A stretch of DNA of 64,000 bases from Dictyostelium discoideum (taxonomy: Eukaryota), in assembly GCA_000004695.1 (NCBI GenBank), contig CM000152.2, positions 3,552,001-3,616,000 on the forward strand, given 5' to 3'. A program made the translations under genes and the position numbers. The notes under the pieces were generated by a model. That model was not told where the DNA came from, made no database searches, and saw only the letters and a program-made list of their open reading frames with translations. Below are positions 22,246 to 60,110 of this stretch, piece after piece (the stretch's first letter is position 1; every line of letters starts with the position of its first letter).

Positions 22246-22318
22246 CGCCCAAAGGGGGGCTCGAACCCCCGACCACAAGGTTAAAAGCCTTGCGCTCTAC
22301 CGACTGAGCTATCTGGGC
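22246..22318 (-). tRNA. tRNA-Lys(UUU): tRNA-Lys (anticodon UUU), 73 nt
   Basis: RC is GCCCAGATAGCTCAGTCGGTAGAGCGCAAGGCTTTTAACCTTGTGGTCGGGGGTTCGAGCCCCCCTTTGGGCG. It folds as a cloverleaf: 7-bp acceptor stem with one G-U, A box TAGCTCAGTCGG, anticodon loop CTTTTAA, B box GGTTCGAGCCC. It closely resembles metazoan tRNA-Lys-TTT. Confidence 0.9.
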
Positions 22319-25298: not shown

Positions 25299-25337
<39 letters not shown>

Positions 25338-25479
25338 ATTTCTTTTTTATTTCTATTTTTTTATTTTTATTCTCAAAAAATCTAAAATTAACTTTTTTTT
25401 TTGAAAAAAAAAAAAAAATCGACGTGGTTTCTAATAATATTAATTTTCATGTTTCAAATTTTATTTTTTATTTTTTAAT

Positions 25480-25590
25480 TTCATTTTTTGCGTGGCATTT
25501 TTATTTTTTATATGCATTCACCACATGCACAACTATACAGTCAACGCTTTTGTTTTATTTCCCCATTTTCTCACCAACAACAAAACACTA
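25480..25590 (+). promoter_or_regulatory. Conserved promoter module upstream of ARF-like copy 1 (TATAAAATG box and a conserved upstream element)
   Basis: ...ttatatgcattcaccacatgcacaactatacagtcaacgctt...ccccattttctcaccaacaacaaaacactataaaatg is almost identical to 34035..34135 upstream of copy 2. The flanking AT-rich DNA has diverged. Confidence 0.5.
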
Positions 25591-25716
25591 TAAAATGAAA
25601 AAAAAAAAAGAAAATATTCATTCATTTAATAAATAAGCAAATAAAAAACAAAATAAAACAAAATTATAAATAAATTCATTTAAAAAATATAATTAAAATA
25701 ATAAAATAAAAATAAA

Positions 25717-26283
25717 ATGTTATCAGAATTATTCAACAGTTTAGCATCATTTTTTAGTAACATATTCTCATTATTTGAAGGTAAAAAAGAAACAAGAATA
25801 TTAATGATTGGACTTGATGGTGCAGGTAAATCAACACTTTTATATAAATTAAAATTGGGTGATGTTGTTTCAACCATTCCAACCATTGGTTTCAATGTCG
25901 AAACTATTGAATATAAAAATTTATCAATGACAGTTTGGGATGTAGGTGGTCAACATAAAATTCGTCCATTATGGAAACACTATTATCATGGTTCAAATGC
26001 AGTCATCTTTGTAGTTGATAGTACTGATCGTGAAAGAATGGATGAAGTTAAAGAGGAAATTGATAATCTTTTAATTCAAGATGAATTAAAAGGTACACAA
26101 ATATTAGTATTTGCAAATAAACAAGATATGAATAATGCAATGAATACTGCAGAAATTGTAAACTCTTTAGATTTAAATTCAATTAAAGATAGAAAATGGT
26201 ATGTTCAACCATGTAGCGCCATTAGATCAGATGGTATATATGAAGGATTTGATTGGGTAGCAAATTCACTCAATAATAAATAA
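25717..26283 (+). CDS. ARF-like small GTPase (ADP-ribosylation factor family), 188 aa, copy 1
   Basis: [17 protein letters not shown] (P-loop), [11 protein letters not shown] (switch I), [13 protein letters not shown] (switch II with the catalytic Gln), NKQD, CSA. About 60% identity to ARF1 along the full length. It lacks the N-terminal Gly2 myristoylation site (MLSELF...), so it is ARF-like rather than a canonical ARF. Confidence 0.9.
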
Positions 26284-26409
26284 ATAATAAAATAATAAAA
26301 TAAAAGCCTTGTATATATATAGTAAAATAAATAAAGATAAAATAAAATTTTTTTTTTAATATAACATTTATTTGTTTGTTTGTTTATTTTATTATTTATT
26401 TAAAATAAA

Positions 26410-29076
26410 TTACATAACCGACGAGAGAACCAACAGCAGCAACACAACTAATTGTAATACTTGCAATTGCCCACCTGATAGTTTGGATGTTTTACCGATT
26501 GATGGTGATGGGGATGGAGATATTGATGTTTGAGTTTCTTCAATTTTAACATCATAATGAAATGGTGTAGAGCTTAATTGGAGATATAATACTCCTGATG
26601 TTTCATTAACAAATGAATTGGAATGGCATAATATAAAATCGGAACTGTTTGTAAAATCGGTTTCGTTTGAACTTAATTTTGGTGATATGCTATATTGTAA
26701 ATTACATGAAAGAGAAACATTTTCTGATGAAACTGCCAAGCTTGCATTAATAAAACCTGAAAAGCAAACACCACCAATAGTTATTGAAATACCATCTTTT
26801 TTATTTTTAATGGTTGAAATAACTGTAATCTTTGGTTCTAAATATGTTAATATTGCATTTGGTCCCAAATCATCACCGATTAATATTGAAACAAAGAGTG
26901 GACTCTCTTTACTTTCAGCTCTAACTATTAACATATTTTCATTTTGAACAATTATTGTAGTGTTTTTATTATTTGCTAATACTTTAACTTTGAATTCATC
27001 TCCATTTGACAATAAATTCTTACCAGAAACTGTGATAAAACCTCCACAAGCAATTGTTTTATTATCTTTATTTATTATACCATAAATAACAGGTGGAAAT
27101 TTTAAATTAAATAATGATTCCATATTATTTCCATTTACTGTAATATTAATTGGACCATTTTCATAGGAGTTCAATGTTTTAATAGTTAATTGATTATTTG
27201 TTAATGTTAGAATTTCTGATGAAATATCATTACCATTGAAATAAACTTTAATATATGATATTGAGTTACCGAAATTATTTCCATAAAATGTAATATTATA
27301 TTGACCTTTAGAAAATTTACGATTCTCAATATTTGGTGGAGCATATGAGTATTCATCACTAACTGTCTCTGAGTTTAATTGGAATATGAATTGTTTATTG
27401 ATACCTGTACCATATGGTGTTGAACATGTTGTTACATAGAAACTAGAATTTGAATATTGTAATGATGGTGTTGAACATTGTGTGGCTGATGAATTACCAA
27501 CTGTAATACTTGGTTGTGATGATGAACTAATTGGACAATCCATATAATATAATTCAATATTTAATGATCCATTTGAAAGATTTGGTCTATTGATTACATT
27601 TATTAATAGTGATGCTGAAATTGAAATTGTATTTGAGGTCATATTAGAACGAATGAAATTAATATTAAATGTACTACATCTTAAAAGAGGTAATTTAAAA
27701 GTTAAACTCTTTTCATCAGGCAATATTTTAAATTGGTCTATGTTTATATAACCATTAATTCCATTACTATGTAATTGAATGAACGATTCTCTATTTTTAC
27801 CAAAACGTGTACCAATTAATGTAACAATACCATTTGAATATGATCCACTTGATAAAGTTGGAGCATTATATGAAAATGATACACCATTAGGACTTGTTGA
27901 ATTACAACCACTGAAATTAACGTCAACTTTTAAATGTGTACCACCATATTCATTTGGATCTAATTTACATTCTAATTCAGTTGTAGTTGATTTAATAAGT
28001 GTACATTGTTTATTACCAATTGTAATTGATGGGATAAATGATGAATTTAAAGTTGATGATAATTTTTCACCATTAATTGTTACTATACCACCTAAATAAT
28101 TTGATACTGATGATATTGATGTTATTATTGCTGGGAAACAATGAATAAAATTCCTTTCCATTGAGACTTCATTTACCATAATATAAACAGACATTGGACC
28201 GGGATCAGGCATACTAAAGTTATTCACTTGAATTTGTGTATGATTTACTGAAATATTAAAATTGGGTTGATTAACACCATTAATAGAAACTTCAACCAAT
28301 TTTTTATCTGTAAAGAAGTTATCACCATTAATTGTTAATATGTGTTTCAATGAGTCTGAAACAGTACTTGATATTTTAGGTGATTCGTATGAAAATGGAA
28401 AACGACTACTCCAACTATCTTCATCAAATGAAAATGCAAAATTTCCAGAGCCTGGTGGAATTGTTACAGTAATATTATTACAGTCAAAAGATGGATCAGA
28501 GAAATTACCTTTAATAACAAAAGGATTATTTGTATTTTGAAGCAAATTTGGACCACCCCTTATTCTTAAATAATTGCCAGTAATTACTATATCACCTCCA
28601 GATGTTTTAGGTTTTTTATTATATTTCAAATTAGTTGGTTTTGGAAATCTATAAAATTCTGAAATACTAAATGGACACTCTTCAATTGGACTTGATACTT
28701 CTCTTACACATATCTTACTGTGAACACTACCCCATAATCTTGATAATGGCTCATCTGAATGGAATGTACAATATCTCCTATTACCATCAATAACAAGACT
28801 ACAATCAAAATAATTTGGTGCCATTTCATATCTTGGTGTTGTTTCGTTTTGATACATAATTAAACGGGTGGGATATGAACGATGACTTTGAAATACTAAT
28901 GTGAATGATTTTTCATCAAATATTGCATCTAAAAAAACAAATTAATTGAATAAACAAATTATTATAAATAAATTAAAAAAAAAAAAAAGATATTTACCAA
29001 TTGAGTATGGACGTTCCATTAAATATCCTAATTTAAATATTGAGAATAAAATCAGTAATATTATTTTCTGTTCCAT
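26410..29076 (-). CDS. Secreted IPT/TIG-repeat cell-surface protein, Tgr-like, probably GPI-anchored, about 841 aa, copy 1. Exon 1 is 29076..28998 (signal peptide), intron 28997..28929, exon 2 is 28928..26410.
   Basis: The 815-aa ORF begins without a signal peptide. Upstream, an ATG exon [26 protein letters not shown](G/D) ends at donor GTAAAT and is joined via a 69-bp intron (acceptor TTTTAG) in frame to [36 protein letters not shown]. The body contains multiple IPT/TIG-type repeats ([12 protein letters not shown]..., [55 protein letters not shown]). The C-terminus (...[30 protein letters not shown]) looks like a GPI-attachment signal. There are many N-glycosylation sequons. Confidence 0.75.
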
Positions 29077-30455
29077 TTTTATTATATTTTTATCTTTTGA
29101 ATTTGGATTTATTAGTTATACTTATAAAAAAAATTAATTAAAAAGACAAATTTAACTAAAACGTGAAATAATAATTTTTAATATACGAATAGAAAAAAAA
29201 AAAAAAATAATAAAAATAAAATAAAAAAAAAAATAAAATAAAAAAATAAAATTTAATATTTAAAAAAACCGAAAACAACATCTAAAAATAGAGGCTCTGG
29301 TTAATGAGCTTGATTGGTATATTTCATACATCAACCAAATTAAATTCACAAAACAAAAAAAAAAAAAAAAATATTTGAAAACACAAAACAGTAATTTAAA
29401 AATAAATTATTTTTAAACATCAACCAAAAATTTCTTTTTTATATTTTTAATTGTATTTTTGGTTTGTTAATTAATTATTATTTGATTTTCCTTGAGATAA
29501 TTAAAAAGTAAGTTTTTTTTTTTAAAAAAGGAAATAAATATAAATAATGGAAAATTGAAAAAAAAAAAAAAAAAAAACACAATTTCATATTCTCTTGGGT
29601 TCTCTTTTTTAAAAAAAAAATTACCATATAATGAATAAAAATTTAAAAATTGTTGATGAACCCTTTCTAATTTTAATTAAAAAAGAATTCATTAAAAATT
29701 AAAATAAATATAGTTGATAGAATGCAAACATTTTTTATTTATTTATTTATAATTTGAAATTAATAATACATATTAATTTGTTTTATTTTCTTTAAAAAGA
29801 ATAATAATAATAAATTTAAATAATTAAGAATTGAATCTATGCCAATGAAGTGATTATAAAAGAGTAATAATTAATTATCTTGTGTGGAGAGATTTTTTTT
29901 TTTTTTTTTTTTTATTTTCCATTTTTTTTTTTTTAACTACACGAACAATTTCGCAATGCGATAAACAATGATACATATATGTAATAATTATTTAACATAA
30001 AACAAATTAACAAATCATACTTGAATCACTTTGATCAAATATATGATAGTGAACATAATAAGGGTGGTACTAGAAAACAAGTTGACGAATTATCTATTAA
30101 AGATAAAATTGTTTTGAAAATTTCAAATCTATTACAAATTGTTAAAGAAAAACTAAACTTAAATATTAAATTATTAGGTAAATTATTATATATATATATC
30201 TGTAGTTTTAAAAGTATTATAACATCTTATTAACCAAAAAATATGTATTTCTTTTTTTTTTTATTAAAATAGATTATGGTGCTGATTCTTTAAAAATTGG
30301 ATAGAACTTCAATATGTTCCAATTTCTTTAGTAAAATTACAAAATACTTTAATTAATGATATTATTTTATATATTTCATCTAAATAAATCTCAAAATTTA
30401 TTACACAATTCCATTAAAATTAACACCAATTTAAAAAAAAAAGAAAAAATCAAAT

Positions 30456-30530
30456 CAAATCAAATCAAATCAAATCAAATCAAATCAAATCAAATCAAAT
30501 CAAATCAAATCAAATCAAATCAAACCAAAT
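30456..30530. repeat. (CAAAT)n pentanucleotide microsatellite, about 15 units
   Basis: Direct reading: caaatcaaatcaaat... It produces the spurious ORF 30356..30577. Confidence 0.9.
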
Positions 30531-30757
30531 CAAATTTAGTAAAAAAAAAAAAAAAAAAAAAAAATTTAACTAAATAAATAATATTGGATAACGCAAATTT
30601 TTATTTAGTTTTTAATTTTATTATTATTTTTATAATATTAAAAACAATAAAAATTATAATACTTTTTAACAATTTTTTTTAATATTATTTGATTTATTCC
30701 TCCCTTCATTATCTTTCCAGGATTTCTTTTTTATATATATTTATTATTTGATTTATA

Positions 30758-31771
30758 TTAACGTGTTGTAAACATTGAGTTTTGAATTTCTTTTTCTTTT
30801 TTATTGATTTTAATCATCCTTAAACCACAAGCATTACAAAGTGTAATATGTTGTCCATTAAAAATAAAATTTCTCCAATTGTTTGATTCTATATTTGGAC
30901 ACATGTAACAATCACCAGGTCTTAATTTCAATTTTCTTATTATCTTTGGTGTATTATAATCATCTGATGTTTGATTTGTTGTTCTTAACTTTTTACTTAA
31001 TTCCATGGTTTCTTTAACAATATAATTATTTACATTTAATCTACGTTTTCTTGGGAACAAATTGGCATCAGTTATTGTATTATTATTATTAATATGTGGA
31101 CTTTGTGAAGTAATGGTCTGAGAACTGATTTGATTTTGTAAATTTGTTGAATTGTTGTCAGAAACAAGAGGTGGCAATACAGGTGTTGGTATTTTACGGT
31201 TTGGTACATTTCTAGTTCCTATTTCATTAGAAAACATTTGGATATCTATTACTAAAGAAGATTGAAATGAATCTAAAAAAATTAATTCTGTAACACAGTC
31301 ATTAATAAAACTAGTCAAATTTATCATATTTAAAAACAAATCATCTTTCGTTTTTAGTGAGTTATATATTGAAATCTTTAAAATTAGAATTAGTATTTTT
31401 TATTTTTACAAAAAAGATTTTATAAATTTTTAATTATTATTTACCTCATTTGCAATAAATATTCTACAATCACAAATTTTCTCTATTGCATTTCTATGAA
31501 TAATTATATTGTATGGCTGATTACGAATATAACAAACACTATTTAAAAAATTTATGACATAACATCTTCTGTTTGAATTTGTTAATGGATCAAAAAAATC
31601 TCTGCTTGAATTATTATTATTATTATTATTGTTAGTTGTTGGTGCAGTGTTGGTGTTTTTAGTATTAATATAATCATTTACTATAAAACTAATTGAACAT
31701 TTATTGTTTTCTATTGGTTGAGAATTATTACCACATATACAATCATTGTTTTCCATTTTATTATGTGACAT
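30758..31771 (-). CDS. GATA-type zinc-finger protein (single C-terminal GATA finger), about 314 aa. Exon 1 is 31771..31445, intron 31444..31376 (69 bp), exon 2 is 31375..30758.
   Basis: The C-terminus CYMCPNIESNNWRNFIFNGQHITLCNACGLRMIKINKKEKE is a C-x2-C-x18-C-x2-C GATA finger followed by a basic tail. The two track ORFs (31430..31771 and 30758..31339, the latter TTG-initiated) join in frame via GAG|GTAAAT...TTTAAAG|ATT. Confidence 0.8.
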
Positions 31772-31937
31772 TTTTAATGTGGGAAAAAAAAAAAAAGAAT
31801 ATTAATTTATTTACAAAAAGATTAAAATAATAATATTATTAAAAAAATACAGAAGTGCGCGCTTATTAAATAAAAAAAAAACACTATTTATATCATTGTA
31901 TTGAGAATATTATTATTATTATTTTTTGTTTTATTTT

Positions 31938-31969
<32 letters not shown>

Positions 31970-33096
31970 CAATTAAACACACCCTTTTTCTCGCAAGTAA
32001 ATATTTTAACATGTGATATCCAATAAAAATATAATAAATAAACTTGATCATCCAAACAATCTCTATTTTTTCAGTTAGATTTGTATATTCTATTGTAATT
32101 TTACATTTAACACATTTCAAATTATATAATCTCATCATCAATTATTTTCTGAATAATAAAAATTTAAATTACTAATATTTTACTATTTTTGATGGTAGTT
32201 ATATTTTTTTTTTTCATTTTATGAACAACTTTATATAAAAATTTTGACGATATGAAATAATCATTCAAAATCTTTAAAGTGTTTACTATTAGTGGTAATA
32301 ATTGTAAAAAAAAAAAATGTTTATATTTTTGCGAATGAAAATAATAAAAATATACAATCATACCACACTCAACAAATATACCATAGTACAATAATTTTGG
32401 GGATCAAATTTATTTTTTTTTAAAAAAAAAAAAATAATAGTGATAATAGGTAATGGGTGGAGTGGGTTCGAATTTAAAAAAATTATTAATATTATTTATT
32501 ATTATTTTTATTATCAACAAAATAAAAAAAATTTCAAGCTCACGCTAACACTACAAATTTATTTAAATATTTAATTTTTTTTTTTTATAATTATATAATC
32601 AAAAAAAAAAAAAAAAAAAAACTTAAAATTTTATATGTAATAATGAATTTAAATAAAGATAAAAAAATAATTTATTAAATGAATTAATATTAATATTTTT
32701 TAAAAATTTGTTATTTGATATTTGTGAAATTTAAATTTTACCTTTGACAATTTAAATAAAATAAAAAATGAATAATTCAAATTGAGAAATAAAAAAAACA
32801 ATAATAAAAAAATTAACACTTTAAGTAAAGAATTAAAAAATAAAAAAAATAAAAAATAATAATAATAATTACAGAAAATCAGAAACAATCGTGTAAAAAA
32901 AAAATGATTTTGAAGATATTTTTTATTTTCAAACAATTTGGTTGAGATATTTTTTTTTTTCAGACAATTGGAATTCAGAAAAAACTATTTTTTTAATTTT
33001 TTTTTTTAAATGATTGAAATTGTGTTTCTTTTTTTTTAATGTTCTAAGAAGACCAACACTTTAATTATAACAAATAAAAAATTAGGTTTTAAAAAT

Positions 33097-33127
<31 letters not shown>

Positions 33128-33213
33128 TGCAAAGATTGATCCTATTTAAAAGTTATTTTTTTTTTTTTTAATCATTAAATAAAAAATATAAAAATAAATA
33201 TATAAAATAGTAA

Positions 33214-33536
33214 ATAATGGTTCAATTGAAGAATTATCAGATTTAAAAGTTAGAAAGATATATGATCTAAATGTATTTGGTGTTTTAAATTTATTAAAAA
33301 ATTCAAAATTAATTGATGAATATTCAACTCAATCATTCATCGAAATGTTTAATAAATATTCACCACATTCCAAAAGTGATCCTGAAAAAGTTGCTGAACT
33401 CTTAATTAAATTACCAACAATTACCAAATAATTTATTCATTGGATCTGATTCATTATCAACTGCTAAACAACAATTACAATCACATTTATTGGAAGCTGA
33501 AAAATGGTCTGACCTTTCAATTTCAACAGACTACTA
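33214..33536 (+). pseudogene. C-terminal fragment of a short-chain dehydrogenase/reductase (SDR), with a frameshift and no N-terminal Rossmann part
   Basis: Two adjacent frames read NNGSIEELSDLKVRKIYDLNVFGVLNLLKNSKLIDEYSTQSFIEMFNKYSPHSKSDPEKVAELLIKLPTITK* and NLFIGSDSLSTAKQQLQSHLLEAEKWSDLSISTDY*. These are typical SDR C-terminal segments (..vNvfGv..l..., ...lG.da...a...le.le.E...W..ls.stdf). No TGxxxGIG N-terminal region lies nearby. Confidence 0.45.
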
Positions 33537-33760
33537 AAAATATTGGAAAAAAAAAAAATTAAATAAACCTTTTTGTAAATAATAAACCTTTCAATTTCAA
33601 CTGGTCTTTGAAAAAAAAAATATATATTTTTTTCATTTCTTTTTTTTTCATTTAATATTAATCATTTTTTAAAAAATCTAATATTTCAATTCTTTATTTT
33701 TTCTTTTTTTAAATTTAATTATTCATTTTTTTTTTATTTTAATATAACCTCCAATATGAT

Positions 33761-33811
<51 letters not shown>

Positions 33812-34247
33812 CATTTAATTGGGAAAAAAAATAATAAAAAATAAAAATTATTAAAATAGAACACCAATAAGAAGATCTTAAAATTCTAATCAAAAAACAA
33901 ATGGAAATATTTTCTTTTTTATTTCTATTTTTTTTCAAATCTAAAAATAACTTTCTTAAAAAAAAAAAAAAAAAAAAGACGTGGTTTAATATTTAAATTT
34001 TTATTTTTTAATTTCATTTTTTGTGTGGCTTTTTTATTTTTTATATGCATTCACCACATGCACAACTATACAGTCAACGCTTTCATTTAATTTCCCCATT
34101 TTCTCACCAACAACAAAATACTATAAAATGAAAAAAGAAAATATTCATTTATTAAATAACAAAATAAAAAACAAATAAAACAAATAAAACAAATTTATAA
34201 ATAAATTCATTTAATAAATAATATAAAATAAAATAAAATAAAATAAA

Positions 34248-34814
34248 ATGTTATCAGAATTTTTCAACAGTTTAGCATCATTTTTTAGTAATATATTCTC
34301 ATTATTTGAAGGTAAAAAAGATACAAGAATATTAATGATTGGACTTGATGGTGCAGGTAAATCAACACTTTTATTTAAATTAAAATTGGGTGATGTAGTT
34401 TTAACCATTCCAACCATTGGATTCAATGTCGAAACTATTGTATATAAAAATTTATCAATGACAGTTTGGGATGTAGGTGGTCAACATAAAATTCGTGCAT
34501 TATGGAAACACTATTATCATGGTACAAATGCAATCATCTTTGTAGTTGACAGTACTGATCGTGAAAGAATGGATGAAGTTAAAGAGGAAATTGATAATCT
34601 TTTAATCCAAGATGAATTAAAAGGTATACAAATATTAGTACTTGCAAATAAACAAGATATGAATAATGCAATGAATACCGCAGAAATTGTAAACTCTTTA
34701 AATTTAAATTCAATTAAAGATAGAAAATGGTATGTCCAACCATGTAGTGCCATTAGATCAGATGGTATATATGAAGGATTTGATTGGGTAGCAAATTCAC
34801 TCAATAATAAATAA
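34248..34814 (+). CDS. ARF-like small GTPase, copy 2 (about 94% aa identity to 25717..26283)
   Basis: Same motifs as copy 1, with about 11 substitutions (e.g. E25D, Y43F, S52L, P83A). The promoter element is conserved at 34035..34135. Confidence 0.9.
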
Positions 34815-35079
34815 ATAAATAATCAAATAAAAGCCTTATATGTTAGTCAGTAAAAATACAAGGCTTTACTGACTAATATACAGTAAAAATAAATAAAGAT
34901 TAATAATTTTTTTTTTTTTTTAATAAACACTTATTTATTGATTTATTTTTTATTTTTTATTTGTTTTTTTTTATTATTTTTTTATTTTTTTTGTTTTTTT
35001 GGTTTATTTATTAATTTATTCGTTGTATTTTTTTTTTTTTTTTTGATTGTTTAATTAAACTACACAACTGACAGATGAT

Positions 35080-37805
35080 TTACTGGTTGATGGTGAAGGA
35101 TGAGAGCACCAACAGTATCACCAACACAAACAATTGAAATACCTGCAATTGCCCACCTGATAGTTTGGATGATCTACCGTTTGATGATGGAGGAGATAAT
35201 GGTAATTGAATTTCTTCAATTTTAACATCATAATGGAATGATGTTGAGCTAAATTGGAGATATAATACTCCTGATGTTTCATTAACAAATGAATTTGAAT
35301 GGCATGACAAACAATCGGTACTATTTGTAATATCAGTTTCATTTGAACTTAGTTTTGGGTTACTATCATACAATGTCTCATTTGGTGATAAACTGCATTG
35401 CAAATTACATGAAAGAGATACATTTGTTGATGAAACTACCAAACTTGCATAAATAATACCTGATAAACTAACACCACCAACTGATATTGAAATACCATCT
35501 TTATTATTTTTAATGGTTGGAATAACTGTAATCATTGGTTTTAAATATGTTAATATTGCATTTGGTCCCAAATCTTCTCCAATATATGTTGAAACAGAGA
35601 GTTGACTCTCTTTACAATCAGCTCTAACTATTAAAATCTTTTCATTTTGAACAATTATTGTAGTGTTTTTATAATTTGCTAATACTTTAACTTTGAATTC
35701 ATCTCCATTTGACAATAAATTCTTACCAGAAACTGTGATAAAACCTCCACAAGCAATTGTTTTATTATCCTTATTAATTATACCATAAATAACAGGTGGA
35801 AATTTTAAATTAAATAATGATTCCATTTTAATTCCATCCACTGTAATATTAATTGGACCATTTTCATAGGAGTTCAATGTTTTAATAGTTAATTGATTAT
35901 TTGTTAATGTTAGAATTTCTGATGAAATATCATTACCATTGAAATAAACTTTAATATATGATATTGAGTTACCGAAATTATTTCCATAAAATGTAATATT
36001 ATATTGACCTTTAGAAAATTTACGATTCTCAATATTTGGTGGAGCATACGAATATTCATCACTAATTGTATCTGAATTTAATTGAAAAATGAATTGTTTA
36101 TTGATACCAGTGCCATATGGTGTTGAGCATGTTGTTACATAGAAACTAGAATTTGAATATTGTAATGATGGTGTTGAACATTGAGTAGATGATGATGAAT
36201 TACCAACTGTAATACTTGGTTGTGATGATGAACTAATTGGACAATCCATATAATATATTTCAATATTTAATGAACCGTTTGAAAGATTTGGTCTATTGAT
36301 TACATTTATTAATAGTGATGATGCTGAGATTGAAATTGTATTTGAGGTCATATTAGAACCAACCAATTTCACTCGAGTGAAATTAATATTAAATGTACTA
36401 CATCTTAAAAGAGGTAATTTAAATGTCAAATTCTTTTCATCAGACGATACATTTAATTGGTCAATTTTAATATTATCATTAATTCCATTACCATATAATT
36501 GAACGAATGATTCTTCATTTTTACCAAAATGTGTACCAATTAATGTAACAAAACCATTTGAATATGATCCACTTGATAACGTTGGAGTATTATATGTTAA
36601 TGTTACACTATGAGGATTTATTGAATTACAACCACCGAAATTAACGTTAACTGGTAAATTTTTACCACCATTTTGATTTGGATCTAATTTACATTTTAAT
36701 TCATTTGTATTTGATTTAATATATGTACATTGTTTATTACCAATTGTAATTGATGGAGTAAATGATGAATTTAAAGTAGAAAATAATTTGTCTCCTTGAA
36801 TTGTTACAATACCATCGGAATAATTTGATACTGATGATACTGATATAATTAATGGTGGGAAACAATGAGTATAATTCTTTTCAGCCGGGATTTCATTTAC
36901 CTTAACACTAATTGAAATTGGGCCTAGATCAGGTCTATTAACGTTATTCACTTGAATTTGTGTATGATTTACTGAAATAATAAAATTTGTTTGCTTAATA
37001 TCATCAAAATAAACCTCTACCAAGCTTTTATCTGTAAAGAAGTTATCACCATTAATTGATAATATTAGGTACCCTCCGTCAAAAAAAGTACTTGATATTT
37101 TAGGTGATTCGTATGAAAATGGAAAAAGATTATCCCCAGTTTCATCAAAGGCAAATTCAAAATATCCAGAGCCTGGTGGAACTACTACAGTAATATTATT
37201 ACAGTCAAAAGATGGATCAGAGAAATTACCTTTAACAACAAAAGATGTCATATAATCAAATGTAGTTAGAATGTGATTTGGACCACCCCTAGATCTTAAA
37301 TAATTACCAGTAATTACTATATCACCTCCAGATGTTTTTGGTTTATTACTATATTTCAAATTAGTTACAAATGGATAATCTAAAGATGAAAGATCAAATG
37401 AACACTCTTCAACTGGACTTGATACTTCTCTTGCACATACCTTACTTTCTATACTACCCCATAATCTTGAAAATGGCTCATCTGAATGGAATGAACAATG
37501 TCTCCTATTACCAATAACTAGACTACAATTAAAATAATTTGGTGCCATTTCATATCTTGGTGTTGTTTCGTTTTGATACAAAATTAAACGGGTTGGGTAT
37601 GATCGAAAACTTTCAAAAGTTATTGAAAATGATTTTTCATCAAATATTACATCTTTGAAAAATAAATTAATTGAATAAATAACATAAACAAATTATTTAT
37701 TAAAATATTATGATACTTACCTACTGACATTGGACGACCAACTGAATGTCCTGATTTAAAAATTGAGAATAAAAATAAAATCAGTAATATTATTTTCTTT
37801 TCCAT
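35080..37805 (-). CDS. Secreted IPT/TIG-repeat Tgr-like surface protein, copy 2, about 861 aa. Exon 1 is 37805..37721, intron 37720..37653, exon 2 is 37652..35080.
   Basis: Signal-peptide exon [28 protein letters not shown] is followed by donor GTAAGT and acceptor CAAAG|AT, in frame with [36 protein letters not shown] (the track ORF starts at a TTG). The C-terminal ~45% is nearly identical to copy 1. The N-terminal ~400 aa has diverged by roughly 30-40%, by eye. Confidence 0.75.
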
Positions 37806-37909
37806 TTTTATTTATTTTTATTTTATTGAATTTGGCTTTAAAAATAATATCGATTTAAAAAAGAGAAATTTTATTATTAATCGAGAAAATAATTTTTAAT
37901 TAAATAATG

Positions 37910-37940
<31 letters not shown>

Positions 37941-38682
37941 AAAATAGTAAGAATAATAAAAAAAAAAAAAAAAAATAATTAAAATAAAAACCAGCATTAA
38001 CTTCCAAAAATAGATATTGATTGGTATCATTTCATACATCAACCAAAAAAAAGATGTATAAATCTATTAAATTCACAAACAAACAAAATCCAAAAAAAAA
38101 TTTCTTTTTTAATTATCTTTTTGGTTTGAAAATTAATTTTTATTTGATTTTCCTAAATTTTTAATAACATTCAATCATCAATTCAAAATAATATTTATGT
38201 TAAATCTTTTTTTTTATAAAAAAAAAAAAAAAAAATAAAAATAAATTTAATTGACCGATTTTAAACATTTTTTATTTAAAAATTATAAACATTTGAAATT
38301 AAAAATAAAATACAAATTTTTTAATTTTGTATTTTATTACAATCTCTTAATTTCAAATGTTACGAATTAATAATAAAACACAAATTAATTTGTTTATTTT
38401 CTTTTAAAGAATTAATTGTAAATAATAAAAATTAATTAAAACAATTAAGAATTGGATGTATGTGAATTAACTGATAATAAAAGGGTAATAATTAACCATC
38501 TTGTGTATGTGTGAGAGTATTTTTTTTTTTTTTTAAAATTTTAAACCATGGAAATAAAAAAAATAAAAAAAATAAAAAAAAAAAAAAAAAATAAAAAAAA
38601 AAAAAAAAAATGAAAATATGTTTTTTTTTTTTTTTTTTTTTTTATTATTTTTTTTAGTATACTAAAACAACAGTACTCGAAA

Positions 38683-44979: not shown

Positions 44980-45520
44980 TAATGTATATAGATAATAAAA
45001 AATATACATTCCATACACACCAAATGTGTTGTGTCGTTTCATTTTTGAAAGAAAAAAATGAAAATTCCCACTATTACCACCAAACACATTGGCATTCATT
45101 TTTTTTTTATGTCAATAAATTAAATGAATACAAAAAAAACTCACACTCACCACCACACCCACTTCTATATATCAAATTTGTATTGCATTTTTATTTTGTG
45201 TCTTTTCATAATAATAACAAAACACACCAAATGTGTTGTGTCTTTTCATTTTTTAAAACAAAAAATACTATAATTGTATTTATTCTCTAGTGTCGTTTCA
45301 TTTTTGAAAGAAAAAAAGAAAACTCTCAATATTACCCCAAACAAATTGGCATACATTTTATGTCAATAAATTATATGAATACAAATTAAAAAAACTCACA
45401 CCATCTATACATCTTATTTGTATGACATTTTTATGTTGTGTCTTTTCATTTTCCAAACAAAATTCTACAACTGATTTCATTCTCTTGTATCGTTTCATTT
45501 TTTAAAAAAAATAATACATT
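44980..45520 (-). repeat. Two units of the ~250-bp repeat family (same family as the tandem array at 60400..61130, opposite orientation)
   Basis: Repeated core acaccaaatgtgttgtgtc(g/t)tttcattttt...gaaagaaaaaaa(g)aaaa(t/c)tc(c/t)ca(c/a)tattacc...aaacacattggcat is the reverse complement of ...atgccaatttgtttggtggtaatagtgag...ctttcaaaaatgaaacgacac...aaaatgaaaagacacaacacatttggtgtg at 60420..60560. Confidence 0.7.
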
Positions 45521-49559: not shown

Positions 49560-50280
49560 TAATTTAATACAACTTTGTATTCACCTAAAAAAGATTTTGA
49601 ACAAGTCTATCACTGGATTTCTAGTTTCTCTGTAATACCAATAATAACAAGACGAATAGTTACACTAGCATCGTAGCAAAACCTTTGATTACCATAGAAT
49701 CAGAGATTAAAAATGGGTCAATATTCTCTTGTACTTGACCTTTCTTAATTGGGTCATATTCAGCAGTGATTGATGATTCATCATAAGTCATGTTGATAAT
49801 CAGCGTTAGCATGTAAAGCAACTTCAATTGATCTAATAGAATAAAGCATTTCTAGTGGTACAACATTCTTTGCTAATTAAACCATCACAAGCGGTTTCAT
49901 GATTTTCAAATACCACAGCGATAGATCTTTTCAATGATACATTTCGACAGAATTGGTTATCATATTTCAAGAGGGCACACTCTTCCAAAGGTTTCAATAC
50001 TTTTCAAACACCGATTGTGATGATTATAATTTTCTCTTTATTAAATTGGATAACTCTTCAATCATCATTCTCCAATTTTTGAAAATAAAAAAACAAAATT
50101 AGTAAAAATAATTAATTTATTTGTTCATTCATTTATTTTATTTATTTATTAATTTAATTTTTTTTTTTTTTTTTATTTTTATTTTTTTTTAAAAAAAAAA
50201 AAACAACCTACATTCATATGATATGGTGAACTTTTTACTTGTTTTACTATTTTGGTTGACCATATCCCCTGAATTATTTT
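49560..50280 (+). mobile_element. Left arm of a diverged inverted repeat. It is a copy of the interspersed GC-richer element, in inverse orientation to 54535..55650.
   Basis: 49961..50075 (...ggtttcaatacttttcaaacaccgattgtgatgattataattttctctttattaaattggataactcttcaatcatcattctc) is the reverse complement of 54820..54915, at about 85% identity. 50215..50280 is the RC of 54535..54600. AT-rich insertions separate the blocks. Confidence 0.6.
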
Positions 50281-53401: not shown

Positions 53402-53492
<91 letters not shown>

Positions 53493-53545: not shown

Positions 53546-53550
53546 ATTTA

Positions 53551-55872: not shown

Positions 55873-56518
55873 TACCTTTATTTATTAAATTGAATTAATA
55901 AATGTATAACTTTTTTTTATTTTTTTTAATAAATTTTTTTTTTTTTTTTTTTTTTTTATATGGATTGATGTATAAACAAAATAATTCAAAATTGTAAAAT
56001 TAATTATTAAAATTAAAAATAAAAATAATAAAAAATAATAAAAATTAATAATTAAAATTAAAAATAAAAATAATAAAAATATGAATTTTATTACTAAATC
56101 TTTTTTTTTTTTTTTTTTTAATTTTTATTCCCATTTTTCCTTTTTTTTTTTTTTTTTTTAGATTTACTGTACTTTACTTTATATTTGTCGTCAATGCATC
56201 ACTTTGAAAATTTAAAATACATAACAAAAAAAAAAAAAAAATTAAACAGTGCAGGAATTGATTTTTCAATTAAAAAAAAAGAAAAATCTCACTATTTCCA
56301 TGATTATTGTTTCTATTAATACTATAACCCCATTATTATTACCATTTATATTAATATTATTATAAATTGTTTTTTTTTTTTTTGTTCACCCCCAATAAAT
56401 TTATCACAAAATATGTCCTCATTCATTAGTTATTAAAGAAACTAAAAATAAAATAAAACAATAAATATAATTAAAATAACAAAATAAAATAAAATAAAAT
56501 AAAATAAAATAAAATAAA

Positions 56519-56636
56519 ATGTTATTAGAAATTCTCAACAGTTTAGCATCATTTTTTAGTAAGATATTCTCATTATTTGAAGGTAAAAAAGATATAAGAA
56601 AATTATTGATTGGAATTTCTGAAATCATTGGTTTTA
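56519..56636 (+). pseudogene. 5' fragment (first ~30 codons) of a third ARF-like GTPase copy, truncated by a deletion that fuses it to the antisense Tgr-like pseudogene
   Basis: atgttattagaaattctcaacagtttagcatcattttttagtaagatattctcattatttgaaggtaaaaaagatataagaaaattattgattgga matches the first ~96 nt of the ARF-like genes ([32 protein letters not shown]). From ~56604 the sequence bears no relation to ARF, and by 56650 it is the reverse complement of the Tgr-like C-terminal region. Confidence 0.7.
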
Positions 56637-58760
56637 TACGTCAATGTTGTACTTGGTCCCTGGACGAACTCCTGTAGTATTTTTATTATTTGATTTTACA
56701 TTAACTTTGAATTCTTTGTCACTTGTCAATAAATTCTTACCAGAAACTGTGATATGACCTCCACAAGTAAGTGTTTTATTATCTTTATTTGTTATATGAT
56801 AAATGACAGGAGGTAATGTTAAATAAAAGAATGAATCCATATAATTACCATCTACAGTAATATTAATTGGGCCATTTTTATATGAATCCAATATTTTAAT
56901 AGTTAATTGATGATCTTTTAATTCTAGAATTTCTGATGAAATATCACTACCATTTAAATAAACTTTAATTAATGATGTTGAATTACCAAAATTATTACCA
57001 TGTAATTCAATATTAGTTCCATCATCTGAAATTGTACGATTCTCAACTTCAGGTGGTGCATATGAGAATTGATCACTGACTGTCTCTGAGTTTAATTTGA
57101 ATATAAATTGTTTATTAATACCAGTGCCATATGGTGTTGGACATGTTGTTTTATAGTAACTAGAATTTGATGATGGTATTGAACATAGTGAGGCTGATGA
57201 TGAATCACCAACAGTAATACTTGGTGCTGGTGAACTAATTGTACAATCCATATAAAATATTTCAATATTTAATATTCCATTTGATACTGTTGGTCTATTG
57301 GTTACATTTACTGATAATGATGCAGAAATTGAAAGTGTGTTTGCGGTAATATTAGAACGAGTGAAATTACTATTAAATGATCTACATCTTAAATGAGGTA
57401 ATTCAAATGTTAAACTCTTTTCATCAGATGATACATTAAATTTGCTAATGTTTGTATTATTAATTCCATCACCTATAATTGAATGGATGATTCGTTATTT
57501 GTACCAAGATTTGTACCAATTAATGTAACGATACCATTTGAATATGACCCACTTGATAATGTTGGAATATTATATGTAAATAATACACCATTAGGACTTG
57601 TTGAATCACAACCACCGAAATTAACTTTAACCGGTAAGTTTTTACCACCCAGTTCATTTTTTTCTTATTTACATTCCAATTCAGTTGGTGTTGATATAAT
57701 AAATGTACATTGTTTATCACCAATTATAATTGATGGTGTCAAAGATGAATTTAAAGTCGAAGATAGTTTTTCACCTTTAATTGTTACAATACCATCTAAA
57801 CGATTTGATAATGATGATATTGATGTTATAATTGCTGGGAAACAATGATTATAATTCTTTTCAATTGAGACACCATTTACGGTAATACTAACAGACATTG
57901 GGCCAGGCGCAACTCTATTAATGTTACTCACTTGAATTTGTGTATGATTTACTGAAATAATAAAATTTAGTTGAGTAATACCATCAAAATAAACCGTAAC
58001 CAACTTTTTATTTGTAAAGAAGTTATCACCATTAATTGTTATTATTTGTTTCAATGAGTCAAAAACGGTACTTGATATTTTAGGTGATACGTATGAAAAT
58101 GGTACTTTAAATACACCAGTTTCATCATAGTACAACCTAAAAGTTCCAGATCCTGGTGGAAATATTACAGTAATATTATTTAGAGTAGATCCATCAGAGA
58201 AATTACCTTTAACAACCAAAGGTTTAGAAGTATCAATGGAATTTAGAAGGAAATTAGGACCACCAAATAATCTTAAATATGAGCCAGTAATGACCCTATC
58301 TTCACCAGATGTTTTGGTTTTTTACTATATTTCAAATTGGATGCTTTTGGATAATATATTAAAGGCGAAACATCAAATGTACAATCCTCAACAGTATTTG
58401 ATATATCTCTAGCACATATCTTACTGTCTATACTACCCCATAATCTTGAGAATGGTTCATCTTAATGGAATAAACAATGCTCTCTCCATCAACTAGGGTA
58501 CAATTGAAATAATTTGGTGCCATTTCAGTTCTGGGTTCTTTTTCGTTTTTATACAAAATTAAACGGGTAGAATATGGGAGATTACTATTAAAAATAAATG
58601 TAAATGATTTATCATCATATATTACATCTAATAAAAAAAATTAATTACATAAACAAATTATTATAAATAATTAAAAATTTAATGATAATACCTATTGGTG
58701 ATGGACGATACATTGAATATCCTGATTTAAAGAACAAAAATAAAATCAGTAATATTATTT
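56634..58760 (-). pseudogene. Third Tgr-like IPT/TIG gene copy, degenerate: several frameshifts/stops and the C-terminal ~200 codons deleted
   Basis: A signal exon ([26 protein letters not shown], ~58755..58680), a 68-bp intron, then a body homologous to copies 1 and 2. The body is broken into ORF pieces 57665..58219 and 56634..57251, with stops or frameshifts near 58330, 58470, 57640 and 57480. It ends ...[24 protein letters not shown], where copies 1 and 2 continue for ~200 more aa. Confidence 0.7.
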
Positions 58761-59439: not shown

Positions 59440-60110
59440 AACATCTATTTTAAATCTCAGTTTCGATACAAGCAAAAATCAGTTCGTTACTTACTTGGAT
59501 CCAGGGTGTGGTCCTTTATATTTAATTAGTGATAATATCACCATTTTCAGTACAACAATTGAAAGTGGTGCCATACCCAATGTACCAATTCTCGATGATG
59601 ATAAAGGTATTTTAACTATTCAAGGTAGTAATCTCTACAACACGTCAATTAAAATTTATTTCAACTAACATTGTGAAAGACACCAACCCTATTGGTACAA
59701 TAGATGCTTCCCATTCTTCTGTCACATTCTCAGTTGAAGAATTTTTAACTCCAAATAATTGGACAATTGAAGTCTCAATATGTGGCTCATTTTATAAAAG
59801 CTATTCCTACCCATATGGATTACCGGTTCTCACTAAAATGGAAGGGGGTACTTAATGATAATGGTGGTAATATGGTATTTACTGGAAAGCATTTAAGACC
59901 AAAACCAATATTGACAAAAAGAAAACTGCAACATTGGAAGAACCTGGATTTTTTATTGAAAATAATAATACCATTTTTATATTCCTACCAAATAATACTC
60001 AACCTGGTTTTATGAACCTTGTTGTTGGTGACGGTGGTCGTGAAATATTTACATCTCCATGATATAATTATCGCTCCAACTATTACTGCTGGCCAAACCT
60101 TCAAATCAAG
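59440..60110 (+). pseudogene. Additional degenerate IPT/TIG (Tgr-like) gene fragment with frameshifts
   Basis: Frame-shifted pieces: ...CGPLYLISDNITIFSTTIESGAIPNVPILDDDKGILTIQGSNLYNTSIKIYFN*, KDTNPIGTIDASHSSVTFSVEEFLTPNNWTIEVSICGSFYKSYSYPYGLPVL, NDNGGNMVFTGKHLRPKPI, FLIENNNTIFIFLPNNTQPGFMNLVVGDGGREIFTSP. The G(S/T)NL / ITV-type strand motifs are similar to the intact copies, but no continuous frame exists. Confidence 0.35.

What the first reader, a model, noticed from the sequence alone, without database searches (positions are those of the whole stretch)
25400..37900. Duplicated convergent cassette of an ARF-like GTPase and a Tgr-like IPT/TIG surface protein, with strongly non-uniform divergence between copies
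Two ~3.8-kb units (25.4-29.3 kb and 33.9-37.9 kb) each carry an ARF-like GTPase gene on the + strand and, tail-to-tail 130-270 bp away, a large secreted IPT/TIG-repeat protein on the - strand. That protein is probably GPI-anchored. The GTPases are ~94% identical. The C-terminal ~45% of the surface proteins is essentially identical, from about [32 protein letters not shown] to ...VQNE(N/K)(M/I)LIVRA, with only scattered substitutions. The N-terminal ~400 residues, including the first IPT/TIG domains, have diverged heavily by eye. That mosaic points to recent gene conversion of the 3' half, or diversifying selection on the distal N-terminal domains. Both are what is expected for self/non-self or adhesion receptors of the Dictyostelium tgr family (e.g. 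the polymorphic tgrB1/tgrC1 allorecognition pair). Tight, repeated pairing of a small GTPase with such a receptor is not, to my knowledge, a described arrangement. It may be a co-regulated signalling module.
Basis: partly seen in the sequence, partly recalled or inferred. Interest (0 to 1): 0.75.

Follow-up and report, generated by a model that had tools for sequence, protein, structure and literature searches.

The report
Known arrJ–tgrC3 / arrK–tgrC2 duplicated cassettes
The two cassettes are real, but they are the annotated arrJ–tgrC3 and arrK–tgrC2 gene pairs of the well-studied Dictyostelium discoideum tgrBC allorecognition locus; their patchy similarity comes from repeated gene conversion of a central ~0.9-kb stretch, and the GTPase gene looks like a co-duplicated passenger rather than a signalling partner.

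Summary
Two ~4-kb units (25315-29340 and 33891-38047; 88% identical in aligned columns) each carry an Arf-family GTPase gene (+) tail-to-tail with a large IPT/TIG protein gene (-).

These are annotated genes of D. discoideum AX4 chromosome 3: arrJ/tgrC3 and arrK/tgrC2, in the tgrBC allorecognition locus. A 2025 preprint already marks arr genes as neighbours frequently duplicated with tgrC there.

The near-identical block covers aa 446-690, about 28% of the protein, not the C-terminal 45%. The last ~175 residues are as diverged as the N-terminus.

Comparison with a second isolate and a cryptic species gives orthology trees (100% bootstrap) in the 5' and 3' parts. In 26780-27650, paralogues instead group by genome (Fisher p=5e-11). 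This indicates recurrent interparalogue gene conversion, on top of purifying selection (omega 0.07-0.2).

Apparent omega>1 in the N-terminus was an artefact of counting with AT-biased codons; the maximum-likelihood estimate is 0.5-0.76.

The "signalling module" idea is not supported. arrH carries the same arr module with no tgr neighbour, other tgrC copies lack an arr, and the literature reports arrJ/H/K regulated together while tgrC2-C5 are barely expressed.

Extras: a third, degenerate unit (tgrC_ps1), and a hydrophobic tgrC2/C3 tail created by a 1-nt frameshift of the ancestral transmembrane segment.

The parts
25315..25716 (+). Upstream (promoter) part of the ~1.1-kb arr duplication module, unit 1
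   Evidence: It is homologous to 33891-34247 in unit 2 and to the region upstream of arrH on another chromosome.
25717..26283 (+). arrJ (DDB_G0280621, Q54V47): 188-aa Arf-family GTPase without Gly2
   Evidence: Pfam Arf scores 241 bits. There is an exact match to ARFJ_DICDI. The gene ID is given. Omega is 0.08-0.2.
26410..28928 (-). tgrC3 (DDB_G0280623, Q54V46) exon 2
   Evidence: The gene model gives an exact 865-aa match to XP_641085. The name comes from Holland et al.'s supplement. Pfam finds Ig_TgrO1 and TIG.
28998..29076 (-). tgrC3 exon 1 (signal peptide); the intron is 28929-28997
26780..27650 (-). Gene-conversion zone in tgrC3 (aa ~453-743), including a 209-bp run (27137-27345) identical to tgrC2
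   Evidence: Informative sites are 13 'concerted' versus 7 'orthology' here, against 9 versus 202 in the rest of the unit (Fisher p=4.8e-11). A runs test gives p<=1e-4. Segment trees change topology here.
26462..26477 (-). Site of the 1-nt deletion that frameshifts the ancestral transmembrane-coding sequence of tgrC3 into a Leu-rich C-terminal tail
   Evidence: The alternate frame still reads [28 protein letters not shown] alignment with D. firmibasis TgrC1 shows a single-base gap.
33891..34247 (+). Upstream part of the arr module, unit 2
34248..34814 (+). arrK (DDB_G0280633, Q54V41): 188-aa Arf-family GTPase
35080..37652 (-). tgrC2 (DDB_G0280635, Q54V40) exon 2
37721..37805 (-). tgrC2 exon 1 (signal peptide)
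35483..36374 (-). Gene-conversion zone in tgrC2 (the counterpart of 26780-27650)
   Evidence: The coordinate map is; the tests are.
35144..35159 (-). The same frameshift site in tgrC2
56408..56617 (+). Remnant of a third arr gene: promoter plus codons 1-33 (ATG at 56519), cut off by a deletion
   Evidence: blastn to 25611-25815 and 34143-34346 gives 83-84% identity. tblastn covers aa 1-33. The sequence is shown.
56634..58640 (-). tgrC_ps1: a truncated, frameshifted tgrC1-like pseudogene (third unit). DNA homology to units 1 and 2 runs to ~59003.
   Evidence: It is 82-92% identical in aa to LagC/TgrC1, in four different frames, and ends at TgrC1 aa ~680. The ORFs are broken. The preprint names tgrC_ps1 as a pseudogene paired with tgrB_ps.
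59904..60074 (+). tgrB-like remnant (tgrB_ps) head-to-head with tgrC_ps1
   Evidence: tblastn with a D. firmibasis TgrB-like protein gives E=6.6e-10. Broken TIG-like ORFs span 59495-60062.

Best explanation
The two cassettes are segmental duplicates within the tgrBC allorecognition locus of D. discoideum AX4 chromosome 3: arrJ + tgrC3 and arrK + tgrC2.

Origin (inferred from shown features). An ancestral unit in which an arr gene lay tail-to-tail with a tgrC gene was copied at least three times by the birth-and-death dynamics of this recombination-prone locus. One copy has decayed into tgrC_ps1, which retains an arr stub. The arr gene, with its own ~400-bp promoter, is a passenger and not a functional partner.

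Divergence pattern (shown). The duplication predates the split between AX4 and another D. discoideum isolate. Since then the 5' part (four N-terminal Ig/TIG domains) and the 3' end of tgrC2 and tgrC3 have evolved independently. A central ~0.87-kb zone (Ig-like domains 5-7, aa ~453-743) has been repeatedly homogenised between the paralogues by gene conversion, in the AX4 lineage (tgrC2-type sequence copied into tgrC3) and separately in a cryptic-species lineage. The same zone is under strong purifying selection. Together these two processes produce the mosaic.

Protein products (partly inferred). TgrC2 and TgrC3 are secreted, multi-Ig/TIG, heavily N-glycosylatable surface proteins. A 1-nt frameshift replaced the ancestral transmembrane helix and cytoplasmic tail with a terminal Leu-rich hydrophobic segment. 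I infer that this is a GPI-attachment signal or a tail-less membrane anchor. Both genes remain under purifying selection, so they still encode constrained proteins and are not dead pseudogenes. Their cellular role is unknown. The most likely roles are inferred: a tail-less adhesion or recognition paralogue of TgrC1, and/or a sequence reservoir for recombination with tgrC1.
For: Identity: there are exact protein matches to XP_641084/85/90/91, and the names ARFJ/ARFK. The names tgrC3=DDB_G0280623 and tgrC2=DDB_G0280635 come with matching N- and C-terminal sequences in Holland et al.'s supplement. arrJ=DDB_G0280621 and arrK=DDB_G0280633. wacA, the locus marker (a MIP-family gene), lies at 15052-15876.

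Duplication extent and third unit.

Age of the duplication: both units are collinear in assembly GCA_054859355.1.

Gene conversion:
- The Fisher test gives p=4.8e-11 and the runs-permutation test p<=1e-4.
- NJ trees give (C3,C3-orthologue) and (C2,C2-orthologue) at 100% in the 5' and 3' segments.
- In the zone they give {AX4 C3, AX4 C2, C2-orthologue} at 100% and the cf. discoideum paralogues together at 99-100%.

Selection, from the maximum-likelihood codon model:
- aa 446-563: omega 0.07, dS 0.34.
- aa 564-690: omega 0.20, dS 0.057.
- N-terminus: omega 0.62.
- Orthologue comparisons: omega 0.2-0.33, with LRT p down to 1e-8.

arr as passenger:
- The arrH locus has the same module and no tgr.
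- The cf. discoideum locus has three tgrC genes and one arr.
- D. firmibasis TgrC1 has no arr.

Frameshifted tail.
Against: - No expression data were analysed directly. The argument against co-regulation rests on statements in papers, and convergent neighbours could still interact, for example through 3' antisense overlap.
- dS estimates for ~120-codon segments are noisy. In aa 446-563, dS between the AX4 paralogues (0.34) is as high as in the N-terminus, so there the amino-acid identity owes more to purifying selection than to recent conversion.
- Only three genomes were compared, and tract boundaries are approximate.
- The arr remnant beside the tgrC1-like pseudogene shows that the arr-tgrC adjacency is old and repeatedly retained. 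That is also what a functional linkage would predict.
- The GPI anchor is inferred from sequence features only.
Confidence: 0.85

Rival explanations
1. The arr GTPase and the adjacent TgrC protein form a co-regulated functional module. For example, the Arf-like GTPase could traffic the receptor, and selection would then keep the pair together through each duplication.
For: The tail-to-tail pairing occurs three times in this window, including an arr stub next to tgrC_ps1. It is conserved in a second isolate. Both gene types are under purifying selection.
Against: arrH, the closest paralogue, carries the same promoter-plus-CDS module with no tgr neighbour. Two of three tgrC genes in the cf. discoideum locus, and TgrC1 of D. 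firmibasis, lack an arr. The convergent orientation means separate promoters. arrJ, arrK and arrH respond together in hypoxia and in cln5- cells regardless of location, while tgrC2-C5 are reported as low or not expressed in development. Adjacent genes are expected to be copied together by segmental duplication.
Confidence: 0.07
2. The mosaic is caused only by different selective constraint along the protein (a conserved central module and fast-evolving ends), with no gene conversion.
For: Omega is 0.07-0.2 in the block and 0.5-0.76 in the N-terminus. In aa 446-563, dS (0.34) is not lower than elsewhere. The same region is also the conserved part among tgrC1 alleles, at 0.98 identity.
Against: Constraint alone cannot change tree topology. 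In the zone, paralogues group by genome with 90-100% bootstrap in AX4 and cf. discoideum. Thirteen derived 'concerted' sites cluster there. dS in aa 564-690 between the AX4 paralogues (0.057) is below the orthologue values (0.09-0.17). A 209-bp identical run is present. The block is not specially conserved between tgrC3 and tgrC1 (0.72, against 0.66 overall).
Confidence: 0.06
3. Diversifying (positive) selection on the N-terminal recognition domains drives the mosaic, as proposed for tgrC1.
For: Nei-Gojobori windows give omega 2-5.6 in aa 74-245 and 321-420. Paralogue omega in the N-terminus (0.62 in AX4) is about threefold above the orthologue value (0.21-0.29), which suggests accelerated protein change after duplication. 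tgrC1 alleles show the same N-terminal variability.
Against: With codon frequencies modelled (synonymous-site fraction 0.15 rather than 0.22), no segment has omega >1, and none differs significantly from 1 in the upward direction. Orthologue comparisons show purifying selection in every N-terminal segment. Ostrowski and co-workers report low polymorphism in tgrC2 and tgrC3. Site-specific positive selection was not tested.
Confidence: 0.15
4. The two units are an assembly artefact, i.e. one locus assembled twice.
For: None beyond the presence of a 209-bp identical run.
Against: The units are 12% diverged with many indels and have different intergenic lengths. Identical proteins are found in an independent long-read AX4-type assembly. 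Both units have collinear orthologues in another isolate.
Confidence: 0.005

Closest known systems
tgrB1/tgrC1 allorecognition pair and the tgrBC locus of D. discoideum (Benabentos 2009 and Hirose 2011, cited from my own knowledge; Holland et al. 2025 bioRxiv 10.1101/2025.08.01.668227; Polo Prieto et al. 2025 bioRxiv 10.1101/2025.10.22.684067)
   Same: It is the same locus and the same gene family. tgrC2 and tgrC3 are 63-67% identical to TgrC1, with the same signal peptide and Ig_TgrO1/TIG domain order. The pattern of a variable N-terminus and a conserved membrane-proximal part is shared. Birth-and-death evolution, pseudogenes, intralocus recombination and co-duplication of arr and gta neighbours are all already described for this locus.
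   Different: tgrC2 and tgrC3 have no head-to-head tgrB partner. They carry a frameshift-derived hydrophobic tail instead of the transmembrane segment plus basic cytoplasmic tail of TgrC1. They are reported as weakly expressed and weakly polymorphic. The specific tgrC2/tgrC3 conversion zone and the frameshift origin of the tail were not found in the two preprints I searched.
Concerted evolution by interlocus gene conversion in tandem recognition-gene families (e.g. MHC, KIR; general knowledge)
   Same: Conversion tracts are limited to part of the gene, flanked by regions that keep orthology. Conversion recurs in independent lineages.
   Different: Here the homogenised part is the non-variable central and membrane-proximal domains, while the putative recognition domains escape homogenisation. 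No donor-to-functional-gene transfer (to tgrC1) was shown.
Arf/Arl small GTPases (Pfam PF00025); D. discoideum arr paralogues arrH/arrJ/arrK
   Same: There is a full-length Arf-domain match. The P-loop GLDGAGKS, the switch II DVGGQ and the NKQD motif are all intact.
   Different: The N-terminus is MLSE..., so Gly2 is absent and N-myristoylation cannot occur, unlike in canonical Arfs.

Membership tests
Tgr (tiger) family, tgrC subfamily | IPT/TIG and Ig-like E-set repeats in the ectodomain | tested here: met
   Pfam Ig_TgrO1 scores 84 and 95 bits and TIG scores 70 and 72 bits. Piecewise scanning finds 2 Ig_TgrO1 and 4 TIG hits.
Tgr (tiger) family, tgrC subfamily | Sequence relationship to TgrC1/LagC and position in the tgrBC locus | tested here: met
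   Identity to TgrC1 alleles is 63-67% over >95% of the length. The genes are named tgrC3 and tgrC2 with matching sequence in Holland et al.'s supplement. The wacA marker lies in the window.
Tgr (tiger) family, tgrC subfamily | N-terminal signal sequence | tested here: inconclusive
   A hydrophobic N-terminus [15 protein letters not shown]..., conserved with TgrC1, was seen by inspection. No signal-peptide predictor was available.
Tgr (tiger) family, tgrC subfamily | Type I transmembrane helix followed by a cytoplasmic tail (the 'T' of Tgr) | tested here: not met
   A 1-nt deletion shifts the transmembrane-coding DNA into another frame. The protein ends 1-4 residues after a Leu-rich hydrophobic stretch and has no basic tail.
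Tgr (tiger) family, tgrC subfamily | Head-to-head pairing with a tgrB gene sharing a promoter (a feature of the functional tgrB1/C1 pair) | tested here: not met
   A TgrB-like query hits only 59904-60074, next to tgrC_ps1, and nothing upstream of tgrC2 or tgrC3.
Arf family small GTPase | Arf domain with intact G motifs | tested here: met
   PF00025 scores 241 and 236 bits over model positions 3-173 of 174. [13 protein letters not shown] and NKQD are visible in the sequences.
Arf family small GTPase | N-terminal Gly2 for myristoylation (canonical Arfs) | tested here: not met
   The sequences start MLSE(L/F)FNS.
Interparalogue gene conversion (concerted evolution) | Phylogenetic incongruence: paralogues group by genome in the tract and by orthology outside it | tested here: met
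   orthology clades have 100% support outside the zone. Inside it, AX4 C2+C3 group at 90% in sub-block B, {AX4 C2, AX4 C3, C2-orthologue} at 100%, and the cf. discoideum pair at 99-100%.
Interparalogue gene conversion (concerted evolution) | Clustered shared-derived sites and an unexpectedly long identical run | tested here: met
   The Fisher test gives p=4.8e-11. The runs permutation gives p<=1e-4 for the AX4 pair; it is not significant (p=0.46) for the pair in the second isolate.
GPI-anchored surface protein | Signal peptide plus a C-terminal signal: a small-residue omega site, a short spacer and a terminal hydrophobic stretch with no cytosolic tail | tested here: inconclusive
   The sequence S-G-G, then QLQVLQ, then [13 protein letters not shown]-stop fits the pattern by inspection. 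No GPI predictor was available.
GPI-anchored surface protein | Release by PI-PLC, or direct detection of the lipid anchor | not testable with these tools
   This needs an experiment.

The most novel reading that the evidence does not exclude
The tgrC2/C3(/C4) clade may be a functional, tail-less (possibly GPI-anchored) derivative of the TgrC1 receptor. It was created by a 1-nt frameshift that turned the transmembrane helix into a new hydrophobic anchor, and it has been kept under purifying selection. Its central domains would stay interchangeable through recurrent gene conversion. It could then act as a signalling-dead decoy or modulator of TgrB1-TgrC1 recognition, and/or as a live donor of sequence to tgrC1. 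A still more speculative extension is that the flanking arr GTPases are retained because they serve Tgr trafficking.
Probability: 0.12. Interest if true: 0.6.

Novelty: already known. Interest (0 to 1): 0.25.

Why it matters
The window lies in the best-studied kin-recognition locus of a social amoeba. The cassettes themselves, their duplication together with arr genes, and recombination and mosaicism in the locus are all published or annotated, so the headline finding adds nothing new.

This analysis adds three modest details:
1. tgrC2 and tgrC3 are under clear purifying selection (omega ~0.2-0.3). They are therefore unlikely to be the pseudogenes that low expression had suggested.
2. Gene conversion between them is confined to a central ~0.9-kb zone and recurs in separate lineages, while the N-terminal (putative recognition) domains and the tail keep their identity.
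3. Their membrane-anchoring end arose by frameshifting the ancestral transmembrane segment. This removes the cytoplasmic tail and predicts a different mode of membrane attachment and no TgrC1-type signalling.

These points could guide experiments on what the "spare" tgrC genes do.

Tried and rejected
- Nei-Gojobori sliding dN/dS suggested omega >1 in the N-terminus. I rejected this as a counting artefact of the 78% A+T genome once a maximum-likelihood GY94/F3x4 model gave omega <1 everywhere.
- I looked for a tgr gene next to arrH, the closest arr paralogue. There is none. The convergent neighbour has no Pfam domain and no tblastn match to TgrC3.
- I tried to fetch the AX4 tgrC1 locus through the LagC protein (P0038), to see whether tgrC1 itself has an arr neighbour. 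That exact sequence is not on record.
- The supplement of the hypoxia paper is not held as text. The cln5 supplement lists arrJ/K/H but not tgrC2/3, so no direct co-expression test was possible.
- The CDS of one cf. discoideum paralogue (P0027) could not be reconstructed with a single-intron model, so it was left out of the codon analyses.
- The assembly-artefact idea was rejected.
- A tRNA scan, run to explain the dispersed repeats at 45-61 kb, found only tRNA-Lys at 22246-22318. Those repeats remain unexplained.
- Structure prediction and fold search were not used, because Pfam and close named homologues settled the domain question.

Full report
**What is there.** The window has 15-27% G+C and is Dictyostelium discoideum AX4 chromosome 3.

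- Unit 1 consists of a 188-aa Arf-family ORF at 25717-26283 (+) and, 126 bp away tail-to-tail, a two-exon gene on the - strand (exon 1 29076-28998, intron, exon 2 28928-26410) encoding 865 aa.
- Unit 2 consists of an Arf ORF at 34248-34814 (+) and, 265 bp away, a two-exon gene (37805-37721 and 37652-35080) encoding 885 aa.
- Exact-sequence look-up identifies the four proteins as ARFJ_DICDI (arrJ), XP_641085/Q54V46, ARFK_DICDI (arrK) and XP_641091/Q54V40.
- The supplement of Holland et al. (bioRxiv 10.1101/2025.08.01.668227) names Q54V46 tgrC3 (DDB_G0280623) and Q54V40 tgrC2 (DDB_G0280635), and their printed sequences match.
- arrJ is DDB_G0280621 and arrK is DDB_G0280633.
- An aquaporin gene at 15052-15876 corresponds to wacA, one of the markers Holland et al. 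use to delimit the ~104-kb "tgrBC locus".

The finding therefore sits in the kin-recognition locus itself.

**Check of the observation.**

- Self-blastn aligns 25320-26401 with 33892-34962 and 26420-29339 with 35099-38047, at ~85% identity. A global alignment gives 88% identity in ungapped columns plus many indels.
- The GTPases are 94% identical.
- The Tgr proteins are 77-78% identical overall. By segment, identity is 0.69-0.74 over aa 1-445, 0.96 over aa 446-690 and 0.70-0.74 over aa 691-865. The block is about 28% of the protein, not "the C-terminal 45%", and the true C-terminal fifth is diverged.
- Pfam finds Ig_TgrO1 and TIG in both proteins. Scanning tgrC3 in pieces gives the order Ig_TgrO1 - TIG - TIG - Ig_TgrO1 - unassigned - TIG - TIG - unassigned. 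The conserved block covers domains 5 to 7.
- The duplication is not an artefact. Both proteins recur identically in an independent AX4-type assembly. Both units have collinear orthologues in another D. discoideum isolate, GCA_054859355.1.

- The stretch 56673-59003 matches the 5' two-thirds of both tgrC genes at 79-80% identity. The stretch 56408-56617 matches the arr promoter and first 100 nt.
- The coding part is 82-92% identical in protein to LagC/TgrC1. It is split over four reading frames and stops at about TgrC1 residue 680.
- The arr remnant starts at the ATG at 56519 and ends after codon 33. A ~1.14-kb deletion therefore removed the rest of arr and the 3' end of tgrC.
- A TgrB-like query hits 59904-60074 on the + strand, among broken TIG-like ORFs.
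- This matches the tgrC_ps1/tgrB_ps pseudogene pair described by Polo Prieto et al. (10.1101/2025.10.22.684067).
- The arr-tgrC tail-to-tail arrangement is thus older than the split between tgrC1-like and tgrC2/3-like copies. No tgrB remnant lies upstream of tgrC2 or tgrC3.

**Why the divergence is mosaic.** I extracted the orthologous units from the second isolate, here called W, and two paralogues from a D. cf. discoideum assembly.

- Site patterns. Across the four D. discoideum sequences, informative sites support orthology (unit 1 with its orthologue, unit 2 with its orthologue) almost everywhere: 202 sites against 9. In 26780-27650, 13 sites support "paralogues of one genome together" against 7 for orthology (Fisher p=4.8e-11).
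- Runs test. A Sawyer-type permutation for the AX4 pair gives p<=1e-4. The longest identical run is 209 bp (27137-27345 = 35840-36048). The same test on the W pair is not significant (p=0.46).
- Trees outside the zone. Neighbour-joining trees with tgrC_ps1 as outgroup give (C3,C3-orthologue) and (C2,C2-orthologue) at 100% bootstrap in the 5' segment and in the 3' segment.
- Trees inside the zone. AX4 tgrC3 falls with AX4 tgrC2 and the W tgrC2-orthologue at 100%. In the 3' sub-block (aa 555-743), AX4 C2+C3 pair at 90%. The two cf. discoideum paralogues, which join different clades in the 5' segment, pair at 99-100%.

This is the signature of interparalogue gene conversion, occurring independently in at least the AX4 and cf. 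discoideum lineages. In AX4, a tgrC2-type donor appears to have converted tgrC3.

**Selection.**

- Method. Nei-Gojobori windows suggested omega of 2-5 in the N-terminal third. That method assumes equal codon usage and overcounts synonymous sites in this A+T-rich genome. A maximum-likelihood GY94 model with F3x4 frequencies puts the synonymous-site fraction at 0.15.
- AX4 paralogues: aa 27-445, omega 0.62 and dS 0.26; aa 446-563, omega 0.07 and dS 0.34; aa 564-690, omega 0.20 and dS 0.057; aa 691-865, omega ~0.3 and dS 0.38-0.62.
- Orthologue pairs give omega 0.2-0.33 in all large segments, and omega=1 is rejected (p down to 1e-8).
- The 5' part of the identical block is identical mainly because amino-acid changes are removed. 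The 3' part is also young: its dS is below the orthologue values of 0.09-0.17.
- The N-terminal domains changed faster between paralogues than between orthologues, but there is no evidence for omega >1.
- Both genes are constrained coding sequences. Holland et al. suggested that tgrC2-C5 may behave as pseudogenes because of low expression.

**The arr genes.**

- arrJ and arrK are intact Arf-domain GTPases (P-loop, DVGGQ, NKQD) without Gly2. Omega is 0.08-0.2.
- Their paralogue dS (0.12) is no higher than their orthologue dS (0.13-0.18). "Concerted" sites are enriched in the CDS (4 of 12 informative sites, 2 of which fit neither pattern; p=3e-4). The arr coding regions have probably been homogenised as well.
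- arrH, on another chromosome, shares the whole ~1.1-kb module (about 400 bp upstream, the CDS and about 80 bp downstream) but has no tgr neighbour.
- In the cf. discoideum locus, only one of three tgrC genes has an arr. TgrC1 of D. firmibasis has a head-to-head tgrB-like gene and no arr.
- Holland et al.'s Fig. [quoted passage not shown] A weak GATA-finger ORF lies between the units at 30758-31339.
- Papers report arrF/H/J/K induced together in chronic hypoxia and arrJ/H/K among the most up-regulated genes in starved cln5- cells. arrK, but no tgrC2 or tgrC3, appears in a mef2A- comparison.
- With convergent orientation and separate promoters, the simplest reading is that arr is carried along by segmental duplication. 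A functional module is not excluded, but it has no positive support.

**The C-terminus.**

- TgrC1, TgrD1 and the D. citrinum and D. firmibasis relatives end in a Gly/Ala-rich transmembrane helix followed by a basic tail (...SKLSGGAIAGITIG...YFKLITRAKNSFK).
- TgrC2 and TgrC3 and their orthologues end in ...[25 protein letters not shown], with only 1-4 residues after the hydrophobic stretch.
- Translating the same DNA of tgrC3 in another frame gives [24 protein letters not shown]-stop, which is the ancestral transmembrane helix.
- A DNA alignment with D. firmibasis TgrC1 shows a single-base deletion right after the SGG codons (sites 26462-26477 and 35144-35159).
- The frameshifted tail occurs in 11 of 65 retrieved homologues (the two window proteins included), all from D. 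discoideum or cf. discoideum. It appears in the printed tgrC4 sequence too.
No predictor or experiment was available, and a tail-less membrane anchor is equally possible.
- Neither 2025 preprint mentions a frameshift or GPI.

**Verdict.** Their duplication with arr genes, and the recombination and mosaicism of the locus, are already in the literature. The diversifying-selection half is not demonstrated. The "novel GTPase-receptor module" is not supported. The new details are the confined and recurrent conversion zone, clear purifying selection on tgrC2 and tgrC3, the arr stub on tgrC_ps1 and the frameshift origin of the tail. They are useful but incremental.

Noticed in passing
window 26410-26480 and 35080-35160 (- strand): The hydrophobic C-terminal tail of TgrC2 and TgrC3 is the ancestral TgrC transmembrane-coding DNA read in a shifted frame after a 1-nt deletion. 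In tgrC3 the old frame still reads [24 protein letters not shown]. The cytoplasmic tail is lost. This was not found in the two 2025 tgr preprints.
   Followed up: yes
window 56408-60074: A third, degenerate unit is present. It comprises a tgrC1-like pseudogene (tgrC_ps1: frameshifted and truncated at about aa 680), fused by a ~1.14-kb deletion to the first 33 codons of an arr gene, and lying head-to-head with tgrB-like remnants.
   Followed up: yes
window 53433-54221 and 62007-62793: A 0.79-kb duplication (94% identical) carries two copies of the vegetative-specific V4 gene (160 aa; 53551-54033 = DDB_G0280533/P14330 and 62124-62606 = DDB_G0280543). The two copies flank the tgrC_ps1/tgrB_ps pair.
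   Followed up: partly
window 49664-50190 vs 54696-55227; 45029-45517 vs 60418-61045; 48503-48681: Inverted and dispersed repeats (80-86% identical, 150-540 bp) surround the pseudogene pair. This suggests nested rearrangements or a short dispersed element. No tRNA genes lie there.
   Followed up: no
window 25717-26283, 34248-34814; L001 10001-10570: arrJ, arrK and arrH start MLS(E/D)... and lack Gly2, so they cannot be N-myristoylated like canonical Arfs. The arrJ/arrK paralogue dS (0.12) is no larger than the orthologue dS, which suggests that the arr coding regions are also homogenised by conversion.
   Followed up: partly
window 16238-41102 vs L002/L004: The whole region, including flanking non-tgr genes, is only ~84-90% identical in DNA between AX4 and another isolate labelled D. 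discoideum (GCA_054859355.1). This is far more than expected within a species and is consistent with the reported hypervariability of the locus. A genome-wide baseline was not checked.
   Followed up: no
window 30758-31339 (-): A weak GATA-zinc-finger ORF (Pfam E=1.9e-4, below the curated cut-off) lies between the two units. It is probably one of the 'gta' genes said to be co-duplicated in this locus.
   Followed up: no
window 325-5079 (-), repeats at 1134-1594: A 1584-aa ORF with no Pfam match contains an internal tandem-repeat region (units ~80-150 bp, 80-86% identical).
   Followed up: no
L004 3112-3675: In the second isolate, a further, more divergent 187-aa Arf gene lies beyond the DnaJ gene next to the tgrC2 orthologue. 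tblastn with arrJ found no counterpart in the AX4 window.
   Followed up: no
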